A stretch of 8,237 bases of DNA. Origin: a virus. This document shows, piece after piece, positions 1 to 8,237 of the stretch (position 1 is its first letter; every line of letters begins with the position of its first letter). The DNA lies in UHGV virus genome UHGV-0217139. One strand, written 5' to 3'. The notes beneath the pieces were generated by a model, which saw nothing but the letters and a program-made list of their open reading frames with translations, was not told the DNA's origin and searched no databases. The position numbers and the translations under genes are program-made.

Positions 1-126
1 GGCATAACCTGAATCTGAGGCAGCACCTGGCACGGCTGGGACGGAAGTCGCTGTCGTTTTCAAAATCGGTGGAGCTGCATGACAAAGTCATCGGGCATTA
101 TCTGAACATAAAACACTATCAATAAG

Positions 127-615
127 TTGGAGTCATTACCGGAAATCTCAACATTTTCAACTGTAAGAAACTTGTCCCATAGTCCACATAAGCATGTCCT
201 CCCTTTTGGTTTTGTTCAATCTCCAATACTTGCAACCCTCTGCTTAGATAAAAGTTATTTTGGTAGCTTACTACGCCGATTGAACAAACATCATGATCTC
301 AAGCTAAGTGTGTTTATGGATGATGTGATCATCTCGTCAAACGATTTGGCCCAATTACAAGCGGCTTACGACGAAGCACTAGTGGCAATGCGCAAATCTG
401 GTTATCAAGCCAACATGAGTAAAACTCAGGCACCATCGTCAAAGATTAGCGTGTTTAATTTAACTTTGAGTAAGGGAGTTATGAAAGTCACATCTCAGAA
501 AATGAGTGACTTCCTGATTGATTTCTATTCAAGCAATTATGAGCCGCACAGAATAGGGGTCAAAAACTACGTCGAAGCTGTTAATCCAGGGCAAGCGAAA
601 CTCTTTAAGTTGTAA
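127..615 (+). CDS. Reverse-transcriptase-like palm-domain fragment (motifs B to E only), N-terminally truncated; possibly a pseudogene
   Basis: Translation contains LPFGFVQSPILATL (RT motif B-like, LPQG...SP.L), then ~20 aa later SVFMDDVIIS (motif C, YxDD-like with FMDD), then KSGYQANMSKTQ and FNLTLSKG (motif D/E-like G..N..KT and FLG). No motif A is present; the frame is closed by stops at 103-105 and 109-111 and the first possible start is TTG at 127 with no convincing RBS. Composition is visibly AT-richer than the P4 core. Confidence 0.5.
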   Translation: MESLPEISTFSTVRNLSHSPHKHVLPFGFVQSPILATLCLDKSYFGSLLRRLNKHHDLKLSVFMDDVIISSNDLAQLQAAYDEALVAMRKSGYQANMSKTQAPSSKISVFNLTLSKGVMKVTSQKMSDFLIDFYSSNYEPHRIGVKNYVEAVNPGQAKLFKL

Positions 616-880
616 TTGCGATCGCATGTAGTAGCAACTGGGCTTGACTGAATGCCTGCCGCCATTTTGCCGCCACTACCAAAGAAAAAAGGGCTACGCT
701 TTCACGTAACCCCTTGATTTATTTGGGGGCTGGCGGAGTTTGAATAAATAATGTATTGCTTTGATTTTTAATGATTTTGTTTAATTCAGTTTTTGTGCGT
801 ATACCTAATCGTATACCAATGGCTGTAAGTTAATGTGAAATGAAAGCGCATTTTTACTTGGATTGATGCTATATCGTACA

Positions 881-1187
881 GGAAAAAAATTTTTTTTCGA
901 AAGAACTGTTCACACTGTTCACCTTTCTTTTTTCTCCTTTTATTTCAGAGTGATAGGTGGTGAATAATGGGTGAAGGGTGAACATTCGATTCTTCACCTC
1001 CGGCATTCTGCCGGTGTGACTCATACCGGTGATTAATCCCCCATACTGAAATCACACAGGGAGAAAAAAAAGTTTTTTTTGATTTGATTGTTCACACTGT
1101 TCACCTTTCGTTTTTCTCTTTTAATTTCAGTGTGATAACGGGTGAATATACGGTGAAGGGTGAACAGTGGATTGTTCACCTTCGGGG
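881..1187. repeat. crr: P4-type cis replication region (crr): two ~125-bp direct repeats (881-1003 and 1061-1187) with type I iteron octamers
   Basis: The two units are highly similar and start 180 bp apart. Each begins with an A/T tract (A7T8 / A8GT8) and carries TGTTCACAC-TGTTCACC (907-923; 1089-1105), inverted GGTGAA-type copies (956-983; 1140-1166) and a further TTCTTCACC/TGTTCACC (990-998; 1173-1180). As I recall, P4 crr is two 120-bp repeats separated by 60 bp that bind alpha protein via TGTTCACC iterons. Position just 3' of alpha fits. Confidence 0.75.
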
Positions 1188-1195
1188 GATGTCGG

Positions 1196-1223
1196 GATAA
1201 AAAAAGACCGGCAGATGCCGGTC
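1196..1223 (-). terminator. Rho-independent terminator of the alpha operon
   Basis: Inverted repeat GACCGGCA/TGCCGGTC at 1206-1223 (GC-rich stem, short loop) followed on the minus strand by a run of 7 U (plus-strand A run 1199-1205), 8 nt downstream of the alpha stop codon. Confidence 0.7.
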
Positions 1224-1230
1224 AGGTGGG

Positions 1231-3564
1231 TCAGGCTGTTGTAGGGTCGTCACATTTTGGCAGCCAGTCGCCGTAGCTTTCCTCTTTCAGCGTCAGGTTG
1301 GTCTGTATCCCCTGTTTGGTATGGCGCTTCTCGTAATTCAGCCCGTATTCCTTCAGCATCACCGGCAGCCCCAGCCCGAACATTTTCAGACTGAGTACAT
1401 TCCGGTAGCCGTTTGCCTCCATGTAGGCCAGATAGGCGTGATAGAGGTATTTACGGTAATTACGCGGGATGATACTGGCGTTCCCCATATACATGCCGCT
1501 GGTCTGCGGCAGGGTTTCCAGATAGCCGATAAAATCAAACGTCGGGTCGGCATCCCGTTTGATGTTCAGCGCCTCGTCTGAGTTCTGCTGGGACTGAAGC
1601 AGTGACCGGGCGAGCATCGGGTCGCTGAACTTCTGCATCAGGTGACGCACGATGACCGCCAGCTCGCGGGTGATTTTGTCCTTAAGCTGCGGGTCGCGCT
1701 CCTGCGGGGCTATCTGTTCCGGGAAGTGAATAATCACCCGCCGGCGTGACACGCCGCCGCTGCGGTCGGTGAAGCGCATCGGGTTATTGTTCACGGCCAG
1801 AATCACCGCCGGGATATGCGTGGAGTACGCATCCCGGTATTTCGGATCCACGGACACCGCATCGCCGCCGGTGATGGCCTTGAGTCCGGCACCGTCGCCG
1901 CTCCATTTTTCCTGGTCCGGCAGGCGTATCAGTGAGAAGCCAGTTAACGCGGCACGTTCACGCGGGGATTCCAGCGTCTCAATGGTGGCCGACGTGGCGT
2001 TATCCTCCCCGGCCAGCAGGGTGGCTATTTCGGCCATGATACTTTTGCCGCTGCCGCCGGGACCGGTCACCTCCAGAAAGAGCTGCCAGTCGTAGCGGTT
2101 TGCCAGCACCATAAACAGTGCGGCCAGAATCACGTCGCGTTTTTCCGCACGGCCACCGGCGGCACGGTCAAGCCAGCGCCAGAACGCGGGGGCGTGGGTT
2201 TCCAGCGTTTCCCCTTCCACCGGCGGGGTGAAATCCACATCGCACAGGGTACGCATCCAGTGTGACGGACTGTGCGGGTGGAACGTGCCGTTCTGCGTGT
2301 CGAGCACGCCGTTACGAAAGCCAATCAGGCAGCGGGAGGGGGCTTCCTGCTGCGGAATAATCAGCTTCAGGGTGTCCACCACGGAGGCCACCTTCCCGGA
2401 GGAGAACGGCGCGCGCAGCCGCTGAAACAGCCCGGCCACATCCCGGGCAAAGTCCTGTGGTGGCAGCACCTTCCAGACACCATTTTCATAACGGGACAGA
2501 AGCTGGCCGTTGGCATCGACCGCGAGCGCCTCGCCGTAATGCTCATAGATACGCATGGCCTTTTCGCTGGTACTCATGGCGGAAAACTCCGCTTCGCTCA
2601 TGGTGTCGAACGGGCTTTCAGCCGGTGGCCGGATGGCATCATAAATGGCCTTACGGGTGGCTTCCCCGCCGTACTGCGTGAAGGCATCATTCCAGTCACC
2701 GAAGACCGGCGGCAGGGCAACAACACCTTCACACGCATCTGCGGCTGCGGCGGCTTTTTTCTGGCCGTCACCGCTGAGGTCACGGTCAGCAGCAAGGACT
2801 ATCTGACAGGCCGGATGCTTCTGCCGGGCAAGGCTGGCCAGAGAAAGGAGGTTCACGGAAGAAAGCGCCACCATCACCGTTTCACCGGTCAGGTGATGTA
2901 CGGTAAGTGCGGTCGCGTATCCCTCCGCTATCCACAGACGTTTTCCGGCCTGATTCTGTCCTTCAAGGATGTGACAGGTGCCCCTGACCTGTCCGCCTTT
3001 CAGGGTGCGCTTACGGCCGTCAGCACTGATTAACTGAAGGTTAACCAGTGCGCCGCTGTCGTCATACAGTGGCACCACAAGGTCACCGGCGCGCCAGCTC
3101 ACGCCACCGGCTCTGTGTGTGCCGGTCAGCATCCGGCATTCCCGGCCGGGAAAGCCCTTGCGGGTCAGGTAGGCGTTACCGGTTCCGGGACGGGTTTTTG
3201 CCATCAGGGTTTGTGCCAGTGCGGCGGCGTTCTTCCGGGCAGCGTCTGTTTCAGCAACGGCGGCGGCCGTCACTGCCGGGTCAGCCGGGGGCAGACTGCC
3301 GGTCACGGCAGCCACCTTTGCGGCCGCGTCGGACGGGGAGACACCAAACACCTTTTCAACCAGTTTCAGGCCGTCACCGGCACCACACTGATTGCAGTAC
3401 CAGGTGCCGCGCCCCTCCCTGTCATCAAAACGGAAGCGGTCACTCCCGCCACAGACCGGACAGGGCTGATGACGGTTCTTCAGCACCTGAATCCCCAGCG
3501 CCGGGAGAATACGCGGCCAGTGGCCGAGCGCATGGCTGACGGTGGCGGTTACGTTCATTTTCAT
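1231..3564 (-). CDS. alpha: P4 alpha-type bifunctional DNA primase / helicase (replication initiator)
   Basis: 777-aa ORF. N-terminal zinc-binding primase motif CPVCGGSDRFRFDD...WYCNQCG and Walker A GPGGSGKS in the C-terminal half. RBS AAGGAGA 8 nt upstream of ATG. Length equals P4 alpha as I recall it (777 aa). Followed by crr iterons. Confidence 0.9.
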   Translation of the reverse strand: MKMNVTATVSHALGHWPRILPALGIQVLKNRHQPCPVCGGSDRFRFDDREGRGTWYCNQCGAGDGLKLVEKVFGVSPSDAAAKVAAVTGSLPPADPAVTAAAVAETDAARKNAAALAQTLMAKTRPGTGNAYLTRKGFPGRECRMLTGTHRAGGVSWRAGDLVVPLYDDSGALVNLQLISADGRKRTLKGGQVRGTCHILEGQNQAGKRLWIAEGYATALTVHHLTGETVMVALSSVNLLSLASLARQKHPACQIVLAADRDLSGDGQKKAAAAADACEGVVALPPVFGDWNDAFTQYGGEATRKAIYDAIRPPAESPFDTMSEAEFSAMSTSEKAMRIYEHYGEALAVDANGQLLSRYENGVWKVLPPQDFARDVAGLFQRLRAPFSSGKVASVVDTLKLIIPQQEAPSRCLIGFRNGVLDTQNGTFHPHSPSHWMRTLCDVDFTPPVEGETLETHAPAFWRWLDRAAGGRAEKRDVILAALFMVLANRYDWQLFLEVTGPGGSGKSIMAEIATLLAGEDNATSATIETLESPRERAALTGFSLIRLPDQEKWSGDGAGLKAITGGDAVSVDPKYRDAYSTHIPAVILAVNNNPMRFTDRSGGVSRRRVIIHFPEQIAPQERDPQLKDKITRELAVIVRHLMQKFSDPMLARSLLQSQQNSDEALNIKRDADPTFDFIGYLETLPQTSGMYMGNASIIPRNYRKYLYHAYLAYMEANGYRNVLSLKMFGLGLPVMLKEYGLNYEKRHTKQGIQTNLTLKEESYGDWLPKCDDPTTA

Positions 3565-3578
3565 GGTGTTGTTCTCCT

Positions 3579-3899
3579 TCAGTGCAGTACCGGCGCTTTT
3601 ATGTGACGGGCACAGAGTTCATCCATCACAACCAGCCCGAGAAAGGACAGCGACGGCGCGGCCTTCAGGGGGCCGGATTCCATTAAATCTTCCAGCAGGG
3701 CACAGGCTATCTGACGCCCTTTTTCCTCACCGTGCTGGCGCAGATAAAAGCCCTCCAGCTCAGCGGCGATGGCCGCCTCCAGTGATTCAAGGGTGAGATG
3801 CGGGTAGCGGTGCTGACGTTCGCACACGGTCAGCCAGGCACAGGCGACAGCACGACGGTAAAGGGCTGCGCGTAAGACGGGCGGTAAGGGTGTTTTCAT
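3579..3899 (-). CDS. P4 orf106-like small protein of the left operon (function unknown)
   Basis: 106-aa ORF directly upstream of alpha on the same strand; RBS GGGAGGA 6 nt before ATG; stop 15 nt before alpha start. Length and position match P4 orf106 as recalled. Confidence 0.6.
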
Positions 3900-4034
3900 T
3901 TGCTTTCCTCCCTGTGACAGATGACTGCATTCCGTGCCGGTTGCATTAACTGATAAGGCATATCTGCGTCTCCTGAAGACGTGCGTATCCCTGCGCGAAT
4001 ACGCACATTTAATTTTTCGGGTGTCGTTTTTTAA

Positions 4035-4490
4035 TTACAGATAATTGCGGTAACTGTTATCCGGGGTGATTTCCGGGTCAGGCTCCGTGCGGGGAATTTC
4101 CCGCCATTCCCGCGCCACCGGTGCCGCCCGGCTGACCGGAACAGGGTCCTGCGGGTAAATATCCAGATATTTCTCCCGCCATTTCTGTAATTCCGGGTCT
4201 CCGGCCATTTCTTTCAGTACCGCATGCCGGTTTACGGGGCTGCGTTTAAACAGGTCAGGACGGTCACAGGTAAATTCCCGCAGAAAACGCCCCAGCGGGA
4301 TGTCTGTGGTGCGCCCGTCGGCGAGGATACGCACAAGGATACTGAATTTACGGCGGTACGGGTTCCAGACAATGTCCGGGCAGCGGTACGGCATTTCCCA
4401 CGGAATACCGTCTTCCAGAATGCCGACCACGGCCACATCGGGAAAACCGGCAGAACGGTAAATCTCACCGGGCTGGGGAAAATCAAACAT
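4035..4490 (-). CDS. P4 orf151-like protein (function unknown)
   Basis: 151-aa ORF; its ATG overlaps the epsilon stop by 8 nt (operon coupling). Length and position match P4 orf151 as recalled. Confidence 0.6.
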   Translation of the reverse strand: MFDFPQPGEIYRSAGFPDVAVVGILEDGIPWEMPYRCPDIVWNPYRRKFSILVRILADGRTTDIPLGRFLREFTCDRPDLFKRSPVNRHAVLKEMAGDPELQKWREKYLDIYPQDPVPVSRAAPVAREWREIPRTEPDPEITPDNSYRNYL

Positions 4491-4770
4491 GCGTCCTGTC
4501 TCCCCGGTCTTTCTGCTGGGCGAGAAAATCGCGGCACAGGCCTTTGGCTTTCAGCTCATTCAGCACAAAATCAATATCTTCATTCAGGTAGCTGAAAATA
4601 TGCGGAATGTAGAGCTGATGCAGGCCGGAGAGTTCACGGTGAATCAAATCACCCCCAACAAACTGGGATACGGCGCTGGCGCGGTTGAGCTTATGGTAAG
4701 CCTCAATGCTGAGGTGTTCACAGGCGTCATGACGCGCTGAGACGGTCTGAGGGGCTTTTTTATTACGCAC
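4483..4770 (-). CDS. epsilon: P4 epsilon-like protein (helper-prophage derepression), GTG start
   Basis: The track gives a 175-aa ORF, but the in-frame GTG at 4770 has a GGAGG RBS 6 nt upstream and yields exactly 95 aa, the size I recall for P4 epsilon. The upstream in-frame part overlaps kil/eta in another frame. Confidence 0.55.
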
Positions 4771-4960
4771 GGGACACCTCCACCACCGGCAGACGGGCAG
4801 CAAGGGAGAGCACATAGTCACGGACAAAGGAACGGCGGGCACTGCGTTCATCACCGGCGACGGTGCGAAGCATACAGATACGGGGATGACGGTCTGCGCG
4901 ACGGACAGCCGCAAACACAAAGACAAATTCAGGGTGTGAGGGGGTAAGGGTTGTAGCCAT
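4763..4960 (-). CDS. kil: P4 kil-like 65-aa protein (C-terminal in-frame part of eta)
   Basis: ATG at 4960 preceded by a strong RBS AAGGAGG (7-nt spacer); 65 codons to stop at 4763-4765; overlaps the epsilon start by 8 nt. P4 kil is described as a 65-aa product forming the terminal part of the eta ORF. Confidence 0.6.
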
Positions 4961-5338
4961 AAGGCAGCCTCCTTCGAGTAGCAAATAACTGCTATCGCCG
5001 GAGTTCTCACGCTCGATGGCGATAGCCCAGACGGGGGTGAGAATACCGGCCTCGAAGAATACCGGCCAGCCCGGAGGCTGCCCCGCCTGAGCTACCATTG
5101 ACTCAGTGGCATAACATGCGATTGCGAACAGGATCATACCTGCACGGCAAACCACACGCCACACCATAATCTGGCGCTCTGTGGCGTTGATTGCGACACA
5201 AAAAAAGACGCATGGCGCGTCATATGTCGCCTTCGAGTTACACGGGTTCTCACGCCCGGCTGCCGATTTTGCGGCAACGGAAAGACTATATCCGCAAATG
5301 CCGGTCTGAGGATGAGTCTCCTGTGTCAGGGCTGGCAC
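4763..5338 (-). CDS. eta: P4 eta-like ORF (long form containing kil in frame)
   Basis: 191-aa ORF in the same frame as and ending at the same stop as kil; P4 eta is recalled as ~197-199 aa, starting upstream of the early promoter. The start codon is uncertain. Confidence 0.4.
4990..5300 (-). promoter_or_regulatory. P4-type immunity / early-left leader region (candidate P_LE, seqA/seqB/seqC-like motifs, CI RNA locus); boundaries unresolved
   Basis: Exact 10-mer GTTCTCACGC occurs twice (5003-5012 and 5246-5255), with a partly complementary GGGGGTGAGAATACCGG at 5033-5049. Hairpin GCTATCGCC(4991-4999)/GGCGATAGC(5018-5026) encloses the first copy in its loop. An 11-bp direct repeat GAATACCGGCC lies at 5041-5051 and 5057-5067. 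A -10-like TATAGT sits on the minus strand at 5285-5290. The pattern fits the P4 CI-RNA antisense immunity arrangement, but I cannot place the RNA ends. Confidence 0.35.
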
Positions 5339-5339
5339 A
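5322..5339 (+). promoter_or_regulatory. Delta/Ogr-type activator site (TGT-N12-ACA) at about -55 of the sid late promoter
   Basis: TGTgtcagggctggcACA; the dyad centre is ~82 bp upstream of the sid ATG, consistent with a transcription start near 5385 and a ~27-nt leader. P2/P4 late promoters carry TGT-N12-ACA centred near -55. Confidence 0.55.
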
Positions 5340-5359
5340 TCTGCAATGCGTCGTGTTGT

Positions 5360-5377
5360 TGTCCGGTGTACGTCACA
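5360..5377 (+). promoter_or_regulatory. Second TGT-N12-ACA dyad, ~38 bp downstream of the first (possible promoter-proximal Delta site)
   Basis: TGTccggtgtacgtcACA; centre ~17 bp upstream of the start predicted from the first dyad. I recall P4 Psid having a second Delta site near -18, but this is from memory. Confidence 0.4.
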
Positions 5378-5411
5378 ATTTTCTTAACCTGAAGTGACGA
5401 GGAGCCGGAAA

Positions 5412-6146
5412 ATGTCTGACAACACCATCCCTGAATATCTGCAACCCGCACTGGCACAACTGGAAAAGGCCAGAGCCGCCCACCTTGAGAACGCCCGACT
5501 GATGGATGAGACCGTCACGGCCATTGAACGGGCAGAGCAGGAAAAAAATGCGCTGGCGCAGGCCGACGGAAATGACGCTGATGACTGGCGCACAGCCTTT
5601 CGTGCAGCCGGTGGTGTCCTGAGCGACGAGCTGAAACAGCGCCACATTGAGCGCGTGGCACGCCGGGAGCTGGTACAGGAATATGACAATCTGGCCGTGG
5701 TGCTGAATTTTGAACGTGAACGCCTGAAAGGGGCGTGTGACAGCACGGCCACCGCCTACCGGAAGGCACATCATCACCTTCTGAGTCTGTATGCAGAGCA
5801 TGAGCTGGAACACGCCCTGAATGAAACCTGTGAGGCGCTTGTCCGGGCAATGCATCTGAGCATTCTGGTACAGGAAAATCCGCTCGCCAACACCACCGGC
5901 CATCAGGGCTACGTCGCACCCGATAAGGCTGTCATGCAGCAGGTGAAATCATCGCTGGAACAGAAAATTAAACAGATGCAAATCAGCCTCAGCGGCGAGC
6001 CGGTTCTCCGGCTGACCGGACTGTCAGCGGCAACACTTCCGCACATGGATTATGAGGTGGCAGGCACACCGGCACAGCGCAAGGTGTGGCAGGACAAAAT
6101 AGACCAGCAGGGAGCAGAGCTTAAGGCCAGAGGACTGCTGTCATGA
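5412..6146 (+). CDS. sid: P4 Sid external scaffold (capsid size determination) protein
   Basis: 244 aa from ATG 5412 with RBS GAGGAG upstream (the track ORF begins at an upstream GTG, giving 250 aa). N-terminus MSDNTIPEYLQPALAQLEKARAAHLENARLMDETV matches P4 Sid as recalled; coiled-coil-like composition; stop overlaps the delta start (ATGA). Confidence 0.85.
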   Translation: MSDNTIPEYLQPALAQLEKARAAHLENARLMDETVTAIERAEQEKNALAQADGNDADDWRTAFRAAGGVLSDELKQRHIERVARRELVQEYDNLAVVLNFERERLKGACDSTATAYRKAHHHLLSLYAEHELEHALNETCEALVRAMHLSILVQENPLANTTGHQGYVAPDKAVMQQVKSSLEQKIKQMQISLSGEPVLRLTGLSAATLPHMDYEVAGTPAQRKVWQDKIDQQGAELKARGLLS

Positions 6147-6643
6147 TTTACTGCCCGTCGTGTGGACATGTTGCTCACACCCGCCGCGCACATTTCATGG
6201 ACGATGGCACCAAGATAATGATTGCACAGTGCCGGAATATTTATTGCTCTGCGACATTTGAAGCGAGTGAAAGCTTTTTCTCTGACAGTAAAGATTCAGG
6301 AATGGAATACATTTCAGGCAAACAGAGATACCGCGATTCACTGACGTCAGCCTCCGGCAGTATGAAACGCCCGAAAAGAATGCTTGTTACCGGATATTGT
6401 TGTCGGAGATGTAAAGGCCTTGCACTGTCAAGAACATCGCGGCGTCTGTCTCAGGAAGTCACCGAGCGTTTTTATGTGTGCACGGATCCGGGCTGTGGTC
6501 TGGTGTTTAAAACGCTTCAGACCATCAACCGCTTCATTGTCCGCCCGGTCACACCGGACGAACTGGCAGAACGCCTGCATGAAAAACAGGAACTGCCGCC
6601 AGTACGGTTAAAAACACAATCATATTCGCTGCGTCTGGAATGA
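6143..6643 (+). CDS. delta: P4 Delta late-gene transcriptional activator (tandem Ogr-like zinc finger)
   Basis: 166 aa; two Cys4 zinc-finger modules (CPSCGH...CRNIYC and CRRCKG...CTDPGCG); translationally coupled to sid; same length as P4 delta as recalled. Confidence 0.85.
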   Translation: MIYCPSCGHVAHTRRAHFMDDGTKIMIAQCRNIYCSATFEASESFFSDSKDSGMEYISGKQRYRDSLTSASGSMKRPKRMLVTGYCCRRCKGLALSRTSRRLSQEVTERFYVCTDPGCGLVFKTLQTINRFIVRPVTPDELAERLHEKQELPPVRLKTQSYSLRLE

Positions 6644-6716
6644 GGGCTGCCGGTTAACACCGGCCGTCGCCGCACACCGTATTTTTATTCTTCAGCATGA
6701 TGAGAAAGAGATAACG

Positions 6717-7289
6717 ATGGAAAGCACAGCCTTACAGCAGGCCTTTGACACCTGTCAGAATAACAAAGCAGCATGGCTGCAACGCAAAAATGAGCTGGCA
6801 GCGGCCGAACAGGAATACCTGCGGCTTCTGTCAGGAGAAGGCAGAAACGTCAGTCGCCTGGACGAATTACGCAATATTATCGAAGTCAGAAAATGGCAGG
6901 TGAATCAGGCCGCCGGTCGTTATATTCGTTCGCATGAAGCCGTTCAGCACATCAGCATCCGCGACCGGCTGAATGATTTTATGCAGCAGCACGGCACAGT
7001 ACTGGCGGCCGCACTGGCACCGGAGCTGATGGGCTACAGTGAACTGACGGCCATTGCCCGAAACTGTGCCATACAGCGTGCCACAGATGCCCTGCGTGAA
7101 GCCCTTCTGTCCTGGCTTGCGAAGGGGGAAAAAATTAATTATTCCGCACAGGATAGCGACATTTTAACGACCATCGGATTCAGGCCTGACGCGGCTTCGG
7201 TGGATGACTGCCGTGAAAAATTCACCCCTGCGCAGAACATGATTTTTTCGCGTAAAAGTGCGCAACTGGCATCACGTCAGTCTGTGTAA
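6717..7289 (+). CDS. psu: P4 Psu polarity-suppression (Rho antagonist) / capsid decoration protein
   Basis: 190 aa; RBS AAGAG 6 nt upstream; last gene of the sid-delta-psu operon and directly followed by cos, as in P4; length matches P4 Psu as recalled. Confidence 0.85.
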   Translation: MESTALQQAFDTCQNNKAAWLQRKNELAAAEQEYLRLLSGEGRNVSRLDELRNIIEVRKWQVNQAAGRYIRSHEAVQHISIRDRLNDFMQQHGTVLAAALAPELMGYSELTAIARNCAIQRATDALREALLSWLAKGEKINYSAQDSDILTTIGFRPDAASVDDCREKFTPAQNMIFSRKSAQLASRQSV

Positions 7290-7453
7290 AATTCCCCGAA
7301 AACCCGCTTGTTTTTACTGAAAAAAGCCATGCATCGATAAGGTGCATGACTTTGCATGCGTTTTCCCGCCCCATTATCAACAAAACACGCCATTCCCGGC
7401 GCGGCCTGAGCGTGTCAGTGCAACTGCATTAAAACCGCCCTGCAAAGCGGGCG

Positions 7454-7472
7454 GGCGAGGCGGGGAAAGCAC
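7454..7472. other. cos: cos site: 19-nt P2/P4-type cohesive-end sequence
   Basis: Exact GGCGAGGCGGGGAAAGCAC, the 19-nt 5' cohesive end sequence of P2 and P4 as I recall it, located ~165 bp downstream of psu where P4 cos lies. Confidence 0.75.
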
Positions 7473-7780
7473 TGCGCGCAAATGTTGATGTGTTCAATTT
7501 TTTCAAAGTCTGAGAGCGCAATTGAGTTTGCTCGCTTCATCTACGACAATAAGTTAGAGTAGTGATTAGAAAGGGGAATGTTTAATATTATTGAGTTAAA
7601 GTTATTTTTGTGTTTTTGGATGACTCTATTGATGTGTTTATGATAGTGTTATTTTTACGGAGTGGATGGAGGATTAATTTCATTTAATGCATTAACATAA
7701 TGCATGTGTTTTAATGTGGCTGTTAAATATTGTGGCGGTTTTTTAGGCTATAAAAACATTTGTGTGCTTCTTATTTTTTT

Positions 7781-8237
7781 TTATTTATATTTTTGTGGGG
7801 TAATTTCAACATATGAAGAAGCGAACCATTCTACAGGTTTTTTGTTTTTCAATTCTTCTGTGTCAAAATTATCATCTGGTGTTGACCTAAATGTAATATA
7901 ATAAACGCCTGGCTTATTTAATCCAACAATATAGCTAAGGGTTTTTTCTGCTCCTATTAAAACATGTGTCTTTGATAATGATTTACTTTTTGATTCTGGA
8001 TAGTGTTTTTTATCTCTCAAAGATGTATAGAGATTTGGTGTAAAAGATTGAGATTGTTCAACTTTATCGCCATTTGCGCTTACTTTGTACACAGTTAAAG
8101 CTCCTTTGGATGTGTCAAAGGATAATGGTCGTTTGCCGTTATTTTTTATGGTTACATTAATAATCATTCCTAGCTGTGTTTTTAACGGGATAACATTAAT
8201 AGCAATACTGCTAGAGTCAGTGCCCTTAATTTGCTCT
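7781..8237 (-). CDS. 3' part of a cargo gene of unknown function in the post-cos variable region; 5' end lies beyond the window
   Basis: The minus-strand frame stays open from the window edge (8236) to the TAA at 7781-7783, giving 152 codons; the M at 8167 in the ORF track is internal. Very AT-rich codon usage unlike the P4 core. Sequence (…VYYITFRSTPDDNFDTEELKNKKPVEWFASSYVEITPQKYK) matches no family I recognise. Confidence 0.55.
   Translation of the reverse strand, partial: EQIKGTDSSSIAINVIPLKTQLGMIINVTIKNNGKRPLSFDTSKGALTVYKVSANGDKVEQSQSFTPNLYTSLRDKKHYPESKSKSLSKTHVLIGAEKTLSYIVGLNKPGVYYITFRSTPDDNFDTEELKNKKPVEWFASSYVEITPQKYK

What the first reader, a model, noticed from the sequence alone, without database searches (positions are those of the whole stretch)
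881..1187. Two 180-bp-spaced iteron repeats downstream of the alpha terminator
Each ~125-bp unit holds about six copies of the TGTTCACC octamer in both orientations and starts with a long A/T tract (a likely unwinding or bending element). This matches the P4 crr architecture and implies alpha-dependent, plasmid-like replication capacity. The repeats lie downstream of the alpha terminator, so they act as a cis DNA site rather than a transcribed element.
Basis: partly seen in the sequence, partly recalled or inferred. Interest (0 to 1): 0.4.

Follow-up and report, generated by a model that had tools for sequence, protein, structure and literature searches.

The report
P4 satellite crr site, origin deleted
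The two repeats are the already well-known "crr" replication site of a P4-type satellite prophage, but this copy of the element has lost a 757-bp piece carrying the replication origin that crr works with, so it probably cannot replicate in the usual way.

Summary
Window 884-1183 holds two ~124-bp direct repeats, 182 bp start to start. Each has six TTCAC/GTGAA iteron cores, three per orientation, behind an A/T tract. They lie just past the alpha terminator.

[quoted passage not shown] It is 97.6% identical to P4 4291-4590, and all ten annotated "ori type 1 repeats" are unchanged. The same sequence occurs in 1152 of 5426 complete E. coli genomes, so it is already known.

Relative to P4 and to a 99.5-99.8% identical E. 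coli relative, the window lacks 757 bp (P4 8719-9475), at a junction flanked by a 6-bp TGCCGG microhomology. The missing piece carried every ori1 iteron, ORF88/vis and the -35 hexamer of the promoter-like site I take to be PLE. From memory of the P4 map, it also carried PLL. No iteron cluster exists outside crr in the window. All 30 sampled relatives with sufficient flank keep an ori-like cluster.

The junction was found in no collection searched. Alpha, including its origin-binding domain, and cnr are intact. The crr is therefore most likely an orphaned alpha-binding site in a grounded satellite. Replicon II (ori2 plus crr) activity remains an untested possibility.

The parts
884..1183 (.). 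[quoted passage not shown]
   Evidence: 97.6% identity to P4, where this stretch is annotated 'crr'. Homology to P4 starts exactly at 884.
880..1003 (+). crr direct repeat 1 (~120-bp unit)
   Evidence: the repeat finder family D1; equals P4 'crr 120bp direct repeat' 4291-4410.
1062..1185 (+). crr direct repeat 2
   Evidence: 82% identical to repeat 1, start-to-start spacing 182; equals P4 4471-4590.
883..897 (.). A7T8 tract opening repeat 1
   Evidence: Read directly. Conserved in 96 distinct crr units of relatives, 1.37 bits per column.
1064..1080 (.). A8-G-T8 tract opening repeat 2; two A longer than in P4 and in the closest E. coli relative
907..923 (+). Two type 1 iterons, TGTTCACA (907-914) and TGTTCACC (916-923)
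   Evidence: P4 annotation 4314-4321 and 4323-4330.
959..984 (-). Three iteron cores on the minus strand: TATTCACC (959-966), degenerate CCTTCACC (970-977), TGTTCACC (977-984)
   Evidence: P4 annotates the first and third.
991..998 (+). Iteron TCTTCACC
   Evidence: P4 4398-4405.
1089..1105 (+). Two iterons, TGTTCACA (1089-1096) and TGTTCACC (1098-1105)
1141..1166 (-). Three iteron cores on the minus strand: TATTCACC (1141-1148), degenerate CCTTCACC (1152-1159), TGTTCACC (1159-1166)
1173..1180 (+). Iteron TGTTCACC
1197..1223 (-). t-alpha, intrinsic terminator of the alpha transcript
   Evidence: 7-bp GC-rich stem plus T7; identical to P4's annotated terminator 4604-4628.
1231..3564 (-). alpha, an intact 777-aa primase-helicase-origin-binding protein that reads the iterons
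   Evidence: Zn-ribbon, Toprim, D5_N and Pox_D5 domains. Residues 671-770 match PDB 1KA8, deposited as 'putative P4-specific DNA primase', E = 1e-63; a held paper cites 1ka8 as the winged-helix DNA-binding domain of P4 alpha. Seven aa differences from P4, none in that domain.
3579..3899 (-). ORF106 / cnr homologue (DUF5375), intact 106 aa
5299..5304 (.). Deletion junction (TGCCGG microhomology). 757 bp present in P4 (8719-9475) and in the closest E. coli relative are missing here: all of ori1, ORF88/vis and the -35 of the PLE-like promoter
   Evidence: blastn segments 884-5304 = P4 4291-8718 and 5299-7453 = P4 9470-11624, and the same against L004. Sequences read; P4 features; promoter scans.
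5285..5290 (-). Surviving -10 hexamer (TATAGT) of the PLE-like promoter; its -35 (TTGCCT in P4) is lost
   Evidence: P4 site TTGCCT-18-TATAGT at 8728..8699. No promoter-like site in window 4900-5700.

Best explanation
Window 884-1183 is the crr of a P4-family satellite prophage integrated at ssrA. It is a non-coding, cis-acting cluster of binding sites (type 1 iterons, consensus TGTTCACC) for the element's own alpha protein. The sites are arranged as two ~120-bp direct repeats, each with six cores in a fixed pattern behind an A/T tract. As I recall the P4 literature, alpha binds the same iterons at ori1 about 4.5 kb away, bridges ori1 and crr by looping, and starts replication at ori1. Crr is required in cis and works in either orientation, and Cnr tightens alpha binding to limit copy number. 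In this copy of the element that partnership is broken. A 757-bp microhomology-mediated deletion removed ori1 outright, together with vis (the excision factor) and the -35 of the promoter-like site that drives cI-epsilon-cnr-alpha. By my memory of the P4 map it also removed the late promoter PLL. The crr is therefore intact in sequence but most probably orphaned. The satellite can neither replicate by the ori1 route nor excise normally, and alpha is probably poorly expressed. Shown here: identity with crr, iteron enrichment and conservation, intact alpha and cnr, and the absence of ori1, vis and the -35. Inferred: the loss of replication, excision and alpha expression.
For: Identity. The region is 97.6% identical to P4 over the stretch annotated crr, 120-bp repeats and 'ori type 1 repeat' x10. 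All ten iterons are identical. Enrichment. 5 exact octamers against 0.28 expected, all inside crr. 12 of 35 TTCAC/GTGAA cores lie in 3.7% of the window, P = 3e-9, with the same internal spacing in both units. Constraint. An nhmmer profile of the unit finds 1-3 units downstream of alpha, always in the same orientation, in 68 of 80 alpha-encoding loci from Enterobacterales with 57-99% alpha identity. In 96 distinct units, iteron columns carry 1.49 bits against 1.05 for the rest (Mann-Whitney P = 8e-5), and the A/T tract carries 1.37 bits. Cognate reader. Alpha is intact with its C-terminal domain (PDB 1KA8, cited as the P4 alpha winged-helix DNA-binding domain) unchanged. Non-coding. The site is placed after t-alpha, with no Rfam match and only ORFs of 51 aa or fewer. 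P4's GeneMark ORF across repeat 1 is cut to 51 aa here by the module swap at 884. Orphaned status. Window 884-5304 = P4 4291-8718 and 5299-7453 = P4 9470-11624. The same 757 bp are present in the 99.5-99.8% identical E. coli S1-INA-02-B element, where they hold seven iteron hits. No 150-bp stretch outside crr has more than one iteron-like site. 30 of 30 relatives with alpha at least 78% identical and enough upstream flank have an ori-like cluster. P4's TTGCCT-18-TATAGT site loses its -35, and no promoter-like site remains in 4900-5700.
Against: Function was not measured. Binding, looping and the cis requirement are recalled from the P4 literature (Flensburg & Calendar 1987; Ziegelin et al. 1993, 1995, 1997; Ziegelin & Lanka 1995). 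A second P4 replicon (replicon II: alpha with an internal ori2, plus crr) has been described. Tocchetti et al. 1998 and Magnoni et al. 2006 are listed in the references of PMC6092414. Alpha and crr are both intact here, so loss of ori1 need not abolish all replication if alpha is expressed from some other promoter. The deletion rests on a single assembled sequence and was found in no other sequence searched, so an assembly artefact cannot be excluded. The promoter scan is a consensus match only.
Confidence: 0.9

Rival explanations
1. The crr is still functional. Together with the intact alpha gene and its internal ori2, it forms a replicon-II-type origin, so the element keeps an alpha-dependent, plasmid-like replication capacity without ori1.
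For: Alpha (777 aa, 7 substitutions, none in the DNA-binding domain) and crr (all iterons identical to P4) are intact. The existence of a P4 'replicon II' is documented by titles cited in PMC6092414. From memory, it needs alpha, a 36-bp ori2 inside alpha, and crr.
Against: The native promoters of the alpha operon appear lost or crippled. The -35 of the PLE-like site falls in the deleted 757 bp, and from memory PLL does too. cnr, the negative regulator, is intact. I could not retrieve the ori2 coordinates, and only 58% of 36-nt windows of alpha are identical to P4, so ori2 integrity is untested. Vis is gone, so excision to a free replicon is unlikely. As far as I recall, replicon II was demonstrated in plasmid constructs, not in whole P4.
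Confidence: 0.07
2. The repeats are part of the integration apparatus (integrase or Vis arm-type sites of the att region), not a replication site.
For: They lie only ~140 bp from the ssrA-type att core (~726-745). In P4 the attP arm repeats are annotated within 120-140 bp of crr.
Against: Homology between this ssrA-integrating element and P4 begins exactly at the first base of crr (884). P4 integrates at a different site, in leuX by my recollection. The att and arm segment to the left is unrelated to P4. The repeats therefore travel with alpha, not with the integrase. The octamer is the one annotated in P4 ori1, and the P4 arm repeats are separate 12-mers. The unit stays downstream of alpha across relatives drawn from many different genera and contigs.
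Confidence: 0.01
3. The chromosomal crr persists because it acts as a sink or handcuffing partner for alpha made by incoming or co-resident P4-type satellites, an incompatibility-like function that works independently of the element's own replication.
For: There are twelve intact alpha-binding cores with no cognate origin in cis. Extra iteron clusters control replication in other iteron replicons such as P1 incA (my knowledge). E. coli genomes that carry crr have a median of two matching places, up to 8. A single two-repeat crr can itself give more than one place, so this is only weak evidence for co-resident elements.
Against: There is no evidence of selection on this particular copy. The deletion junction is unique, so the orphaned state looks recent, and conservation of crr is simply inherited. 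One chromosomal copy is a weak sink for a multicopy replicon.
Confidence: 0.02

Closest known systems
crr (cis replication region) of satellite phage P4, P4 coordinates 4291-4590 (GenBank X51522 / NC_001609)
   Same: Position after t-alpha, two 120-bp repeats, all ten annotated type 1 iterons, A/T tracts, 97.6% nucleotide identity, and a cognate alpha 99% identical.
   Different: Repeat spacing is 182 rather than 180 (two extra A). The flanking att/int module is of the ssrA type rather than P4's. The partner ori1 is deleted.
P4 ori1 (P4 ~9176-9413: three type 2 repeats, six type 1 iterons, AT-rich stretch)
   Same: It uses the same TGTTCACC octamer in both orientations. From memory, alpha binds it.
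   Different: From memory, ori1 is where replication starts and crr is an auxiliary site. Ori1 has its own type 2 repeats and a different iteron arrangement. It is absent from this window.
Auxiliary iteron clusters of iteron plasmids and phage-plasmids (for example P1 incA, R6K gamma-origin enhancer arrangements)
   Same: A cluster of initiator-binding repeats lies outside the site of initiation and acts in cis through initiator-mediated pairing or looping (my knowledge).
   Different: Those iterons are ~19-22 bp, mostly in one orientation, and the origins use DnaA. Here the sites are 8-bp, in both orientations, inside a 120-bp higher-order repeat, with no DnaA box in crr. From memory, crr is positively required rather than purely inhibitory.
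Replication origins of Gram-negative PICI satellites (two iteron sets flanking an AT-rich region, next to pri-rep)
   Same: Satellite-encoded primase/initiator with an adjacent iteron-bearing cis site (PMC6092414).
   Different: In PICIs the iteron block is the origin itself. P4's system is bipartite (ori1 plus crr), and the crr AT tracts are short A(n)T(n) runs at the unit edge.

Membership tests
P4 crr (cis replication region) | Lies immediately downstream of the alpha gene and its terminator, between alpha and the att site | tested here: met
   Alpha 1231..3564 (minus strand), terminator 1223..1197 (minus strand), repeats 880-1185, att core ~726-745.
P4 crr (cis replication region) | Two ~120-bp direct repeats separated by ~60 bp | tested here: met
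   124-nt copies, 82% identical, spacing 182, 58-bp spacer.
P4 crr (cis replication region) | Five annotated type 1 iterons (TGTTCACC and one-mismatch variants) per repeat, in both orientations | tested here: met
   10 hits at one mismatch or fewer in 907-1180, at the positions annotated in P4. 5 exact against 0.28 expected.
P4 crr (cis replication region) | Sequence homology to the P4 crr | tested here: met
   97.6% over 417 nt covering crr, the terminator and the alpha 3' end (window 884-1300); base-by-base alignment.
P4 crr (cis replication region) | Cognate alpha protein with the C-terminal winged-helix origin-binding domain encoded in the same element | tested here: met
   Residues 671-770 match PDB 1KA8 at E = 1e-63, with no substitution there relative to P4.
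P4 crr (cis replication region) | Required in cis for alpha-dependent replication and bound by alpha | not testable with these tools
   Needs EMSA or footprinting and a replication assay.
Complete P4 replicon I (alpha + cnr + ori1 + crr) | ori1 with six type 1 iterons and an AT-rich region in the same element | tested here: not met
   P4 8719-9475 is absent. No iteron cluster outside crr, at most 1 per 150 bp. 30 of 30 relatives have one.
Complete P4 replicon I (alpha + cnr + ori1 + crr) | Promoters driving the cI-epsilon-cnr-alpha operon (PLE and PLE-upstream PLL) | tested here: not met
   The -35 of the TTGCCT-18-TATAGT site lies in the deleted segment, and no promoter-like site is found in 4900-5700. 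That PLL sits inside the deleted segment is recalled from the P4 map, not annotated in the record. This is a consensus scan only.
P4 replicon II (alpha with internal ori2 + crr) | Intact 36-bp ori2 inside alpha | not tested
   The ori2 coordinates could not be retrieved because the papers are not held. The alpha gene has 37 nt differences from P4, and 58% of 36-nt windows are unchanged.
DnaA-dependent iteron plasmid origin | DnaA boxes and a multi-13-mer-type unwinding element next to the iterons | tested here: not met
   No TTATCCACA-like site in crr. The A/T tracts are not among the 12 least stable 20-mers of the window.

The most novel reading that the evidence does not exclude
This is a naturally occurring ori1-less P4-type satellite that keeps alpha, cnr and a perfect crr. 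Either it still replicates from the cryptic replicon II (ori2 inside alpha plus crr), or its orphaned chromosomal crr serves as an alpha sink that interferes with incoming satellites of the same specificity. In both cases it would be a natural test case for what crr does on its own.
Probability: 0.06. Interest if true: 0.4.

Novelty: already known. Interest (0 to 1): 0.12.

Why it matters
As a feature it adds nothing new. Crr was described with the P4 sequence in the 1980s, is annotated in the reference record, and occurs in about a fifth of complete E. coli genomes. The useful outcome is a correction: presence of crr plus alpha should not be read as a working replicon. Here the partner origin, the excision factor and the operon's promoter are gone, so this satellite is probably grounded. 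It still carries sid-delta-psu and its cargo genes. That matters for anyone scoring P4-like satellites as 'intact' from protein-coding markers alone, because this element would pass on most of them (alpha, sid, delta and psu all intact) while lacking its non-coding origin.

Tried and rejected
- **Primary literature.** I tried to read the P4 replication papers (Tocchetti 1999 by DOI, a guessed PMC id and a guessed PubMed id; Lindqvist 1993; Christie & Dokland 2012). None is held. Full-text searches for crr, ori1 and iteron terms returned nothing useful. Mechanistic statements therefore rest on my own knowledge and on the GenBank annotation.
- **Deletion junction.** I looked for it in complete E. 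coli genomes (0 of the 1005 genomes that match part of the query), species-representative genomes, viral contigs and metagenome contigs. There was no hit, so neither its source nor an independent confirmation was found.
- **Transcribed RNA.** No Rfam match at the gathering threshold. At E of 1 or below the only match is a chance XIST hit, 21.6 bits against a gathering score of 70. Rejected.
- **Coding.** Only ORFs of 51 aa or fewer. The P4 GeneMark ORF is not conserved across the module boundary. Rejected.
- **DnaA-type origin.** No DnaA box in crr. Rejected.
- **A/T tract as the main unwinding element.** Not among the least stable 20-mers. Left open, with bending at least as likely.
- **Integrase arm sites.** Rejected, because the repeats segregate with alpha and not with the int/att module.

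Full report
**1. What is in the sequence**

The window's largest ORF is a 777-aa protein on the minus strand (1231..3564). It has primase zinc-ribbon, Toprim, D5_N and Pox_D5 domains. A GC-rich hairpin with a T-run follows its stop codon at 1223..1197 on the minus strand.

Just beyond that lie two direct repeats, at 880-1003 and 1062-1185. They are 124 nt long, 82% identical and 182 bp apart start to start.

The octamer TGTTCACC occurs exactly five times in the 8237-base window. All five are inside 916-1180, against 0.28 expected, and none of 200 dinucleotide-preserving shuffles reaches five. With one mismatch allowed, ten of the 18 hits fall in 907-1180, five per unit and on both strands.

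Counting the pentamer core TTCAC/GTGAA gives six per unit, three in each orientation. The centre-to-centre spacings are identical in both units (9, 42, 11, 7, 15). Twelve of the window's 35 cores lie in 3.7% of its length (binomial P = 3e-9).

Each unit opens with an A(n)T(n) tract, at 883-897 and 1064-1080. The one qualification is that 'about six octamers' is true of the core, five at one mismatch or fewer, and two or three for the exact octamer.

**2. What it is**

A blastn search of 600-1300 against phage records hits Enterobacteria phage P4 at 97.6% identity over window 884-1300. [quoted passage not shown]

The alignment shows all ten annotated iterons and the terminator unchanged. The differences are a few substitutions between iterons and two extra A in the A-run of repeat 2, which explains 182 rather than 180 bp.

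Over the whole window, 884-7453 corresponds to P4 4291-11624 at about 98% identity. The order is crr, alpha, ORF106/cnr, ORF151, epsilon, the cI region, sid, delta, psu and the right cos end. Rfam finds the C4 immunity RNA at 5015-5102 and its a1/b1 targets at 5239-5291.

Alpha differs from P4's by seven residues. None is in residues 671-770, which match PDB 1KA8 at E = 1e-63. A held paper cites 1ka8 as the winged-helix DNA-binding domain of P4 alpha.

The finding is therefore the crr of a P4-family satellite prophage.

**3. It is ordinary and under constraint**

The 304-bp crr matches 1152 of 5426 complete E. coli genomes, 1077 of them over at least 80% of its length.

I fetched 80 alpha-encoding loci from species-representative genomes of Enterobacterales, with alpha identity from 57 to 99%. 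A profile of the ~120-bp unit found one, two or three units downstream of alpha in 68 of them, always in the same orientation relative to alpha.

In 96 distinct units (61-99% identical to the window's unit 1), the iteron columns are more conserved than the rest: 1.49 against 1.05 bits, Mann-Whitney P = 8e-5. The A/T tract carries 1.37 bits, against 0.95 for the remaining columns. Two caveats apply. The alignment was made with a P4-derived profile, and the units are phylogenetically related.

The region has no Rfam match worth the name, only ORFs of 51 aa or fewer, and no DnaA box. The GeneMark ORF that RefSeq places across P4's repeat 1 is truncated here at the point where homology to P4 ends, so it is not conserved.

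Homology to P4 starts exactly at the first base of crr. To the left is an ssrA-type att region instead of P4's. The repeats therefore belong with the replication module and not with the integration module.

**4. How it works**

The mechanism below is recalled from the P4 literature and was not tested here. The papers could not be retrieved.
- Alpha combines primase, helicase and origin recognition.
- Its C-terminal winged-helix domain binds the type 1 iterons in both ori1 and crr.
- Alpha bridges the two sites, which lie about 4.5 kb apart.
- Replication starts at ori1 and proceeds bidirectionally.
- Crr is needed in cis, in either orientation.
- Cnr increases alpha's affinity for the sites and so limits copy number.

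The P4 record supports the architecture. It annotates ori at 9086-9809 with three type 2 and six type 1 repeats.

The role of the A/T tract is unknown to me. It is conserved, but it is not among the 12 least stable 20-mers of the window. An A(n)T(n) tract is a classic intrinsic bend, which would suit a looping site at least as well as an unwinding element.

**5. The twist: the partner origin is gone**

The P4-homologous part of the window is 757 bp shorter than P4.
- Window 884-5304 equals P4 4291-8718, and window 5299-7453 equals P4 9470-11624. The two segments overlap by the hexamer TGCCGG, which occurs at both P4 breakpoints.
- The closest relative is E. coli S1-INA-02-B, 99.5-99.8% identical and also integrated next to ssrA. 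It contains exactly these 757 bp, with seven iteron hits in them.
- By the P4 annotation, the missing segment holds ORF88 (annotated 'excisionase and transcriptional regulator', i.e. vis) and every repeat of ori1. From memory of the P4 map it also holds the late promoter PLL.
- It also holds the -35 hexamer of the only sigma-70-like site upstream of the cI leader in P4, TTGCCT-18-TATAGT at 8728..8699, which I take to be PLE. In the window the -10 survives at 5285-5290, but no promoter-like site is detected in 4900-5700.
- Outside crr, no 150-bp stretch of the window holds more than one iteron-like site.
- All 30 relatives with alpha at least 78% identical and enough upstream flank carry an ori-like cluster of at least four iterons 1.5-3.5 kb upstream of alpha.
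- Ori1 itself is found in 1067 E. coli genomes, nearly as many as crr.
- The junction sequence occurs in none of the 1005 complete E. coli genomes that match one side or the other of the junction, nor in the representative genomes, viral contigs or metagenome contigs.

The deletion is thus private to this sequence and looks recent. It could also be an assembly error, which I cannot exclude.

**6. Consequence for the interpretation**

The identification as crr is right. The deduction that the element has alpha-dependent replication capacity is not supported for this copy. The ori1 replicon is incomplete, the operon encoding alpha appears promoterless, and the excision factor is missing.

The best reading is an intact but orphaned alpha-binding site in a grounded satellite. 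That satellite still carries intact alpha, cnr, sid, delta and psu genes.

One known caveat remains. A second P4 replicon using an ori2 inside alpha together with crr has been described; the titles are listed in the references of PMC6092414. I could not obtain the ori2 coordinates. With 37 nucleotide differences in alpha, only 58% of 36-nt windows are unchanged. I give residual replicon II activity about 7%.

**7. Verdict**

This is a known feature, correctly spotted and correctly named, and of low interest in itself. The only point beyond the textbook is the private loss of ori1, vis and the promoter elements. That loss reverses the functional inference. It also illustrates that gene-based calls of 'intact' P4-like satellites can miss loss of the non-coding origin.

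Noticed in passing
window 5299-5304 (junction); P4 8719-9475 missing: A 757-bp microhomology (TGCCGG) deletion removes ori1, ORF88/vis and the -35 of the PLE-like promoter (and, from memory of the P4 map, PLL). The Ogr/Delta-type TGT-N12-ACA site (5322-5339) and sid-delta-psu just to the right are untouched. The junction is found in no searched collection.
   Followed up: yes
window 1-140: The terminal ~140 bp look like an IS1 end (recognised by eye, and consistent with thousands of multi-copy hits in E. coli genomes that start at base 1). It abuts and truncates a reverse-transcriptase gene.
   Followed up: partly
window 127-615 (+): C-terminal part of a reverse transcriptase (Pfam RVT_1, profile positions 110-197 of 205), lacking its N-terminus. 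In other E. coli genomes the full gene (774 bp) is the last gene of a P2-like prophage (tail, gpD, ogr, RT) lying directly against ssrA. It is probably a prophage-borne RT-type defence gene, inactivated here.
   Followed up: partly
window ~600-883: Hybrid attachment site. Up to ~725 the sequence is identical to the P2-like prophage end. A core of ~20 nt (GGGGGCTGGCGGAGTTTGAA) resembles the reverse complement of the ssrA 3' end. From there on the sequence is identical to the satellite arm of E. coli S1-INA-02-B. A helper-type P2-like prophage and the P4-like satellite therefore sit in tandem at ssrA. A 23-nt motif at 798-820 recurs between int and ssrA in the relative and is possibly an integrase arm site.
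   Followed up: partly
window 1064-1071: The A-run of crr repeat 2 is two bases longer than in P4 and in the closest E. coli relative, shifting the repeat spacing from 180 to 182 bp. This is either homopolymer slippage or a sequencing error.
   Followed up: no
loci L014, L031-L033, L035-L037, L039, L044, L046, L056, L058, L060, L063, L065, L067-L069, L073, L077, L083 (downstream of alpha): In about 20 of 80 relatives, 0.7-3 kb of cargo is inserted between alpha and crr or between crr units. The cargo includes an OLD/AriA/GajA-like ATPase, an Mrr-type nuclease (PDC-S02), FRG/PDC-S15, SIR2 and DUF3800 proteins. A minor 'primase-att' defence hotspot of P4 is already reported (PMC13586616). That the insertions can be bracketed by crr units may be a new detail.
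   Followed up: partly
loci L008, L010, L015, L016, L021, L022, L024, L026 and others: The crr copy number varies among relatives from one to three units. One element with 99% identical alpha (L008) has a single unit, as expected from recombination between the direct repeats.
   Followed up: partly
window 7454-8237: Past the P4 cos end the sequence is not P4. It is AT-rich and holds most of the window's least stable 20-mers. It matches the cargo region between psu and int of the E. coli relative, which encodes two hypothetical proteins. This is the classical P4 defence hotspot; I did not analyse it.
   Followed up: no
window 5201-5278 (-): Rfam isrK (67 bits) overlaps the C4 a1/b1 target match (5239-5291) in the leader of the immunity region. 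The Salmonella sRNA family evidently corresponds to the P4-type leader transcript.
   Followed up: no
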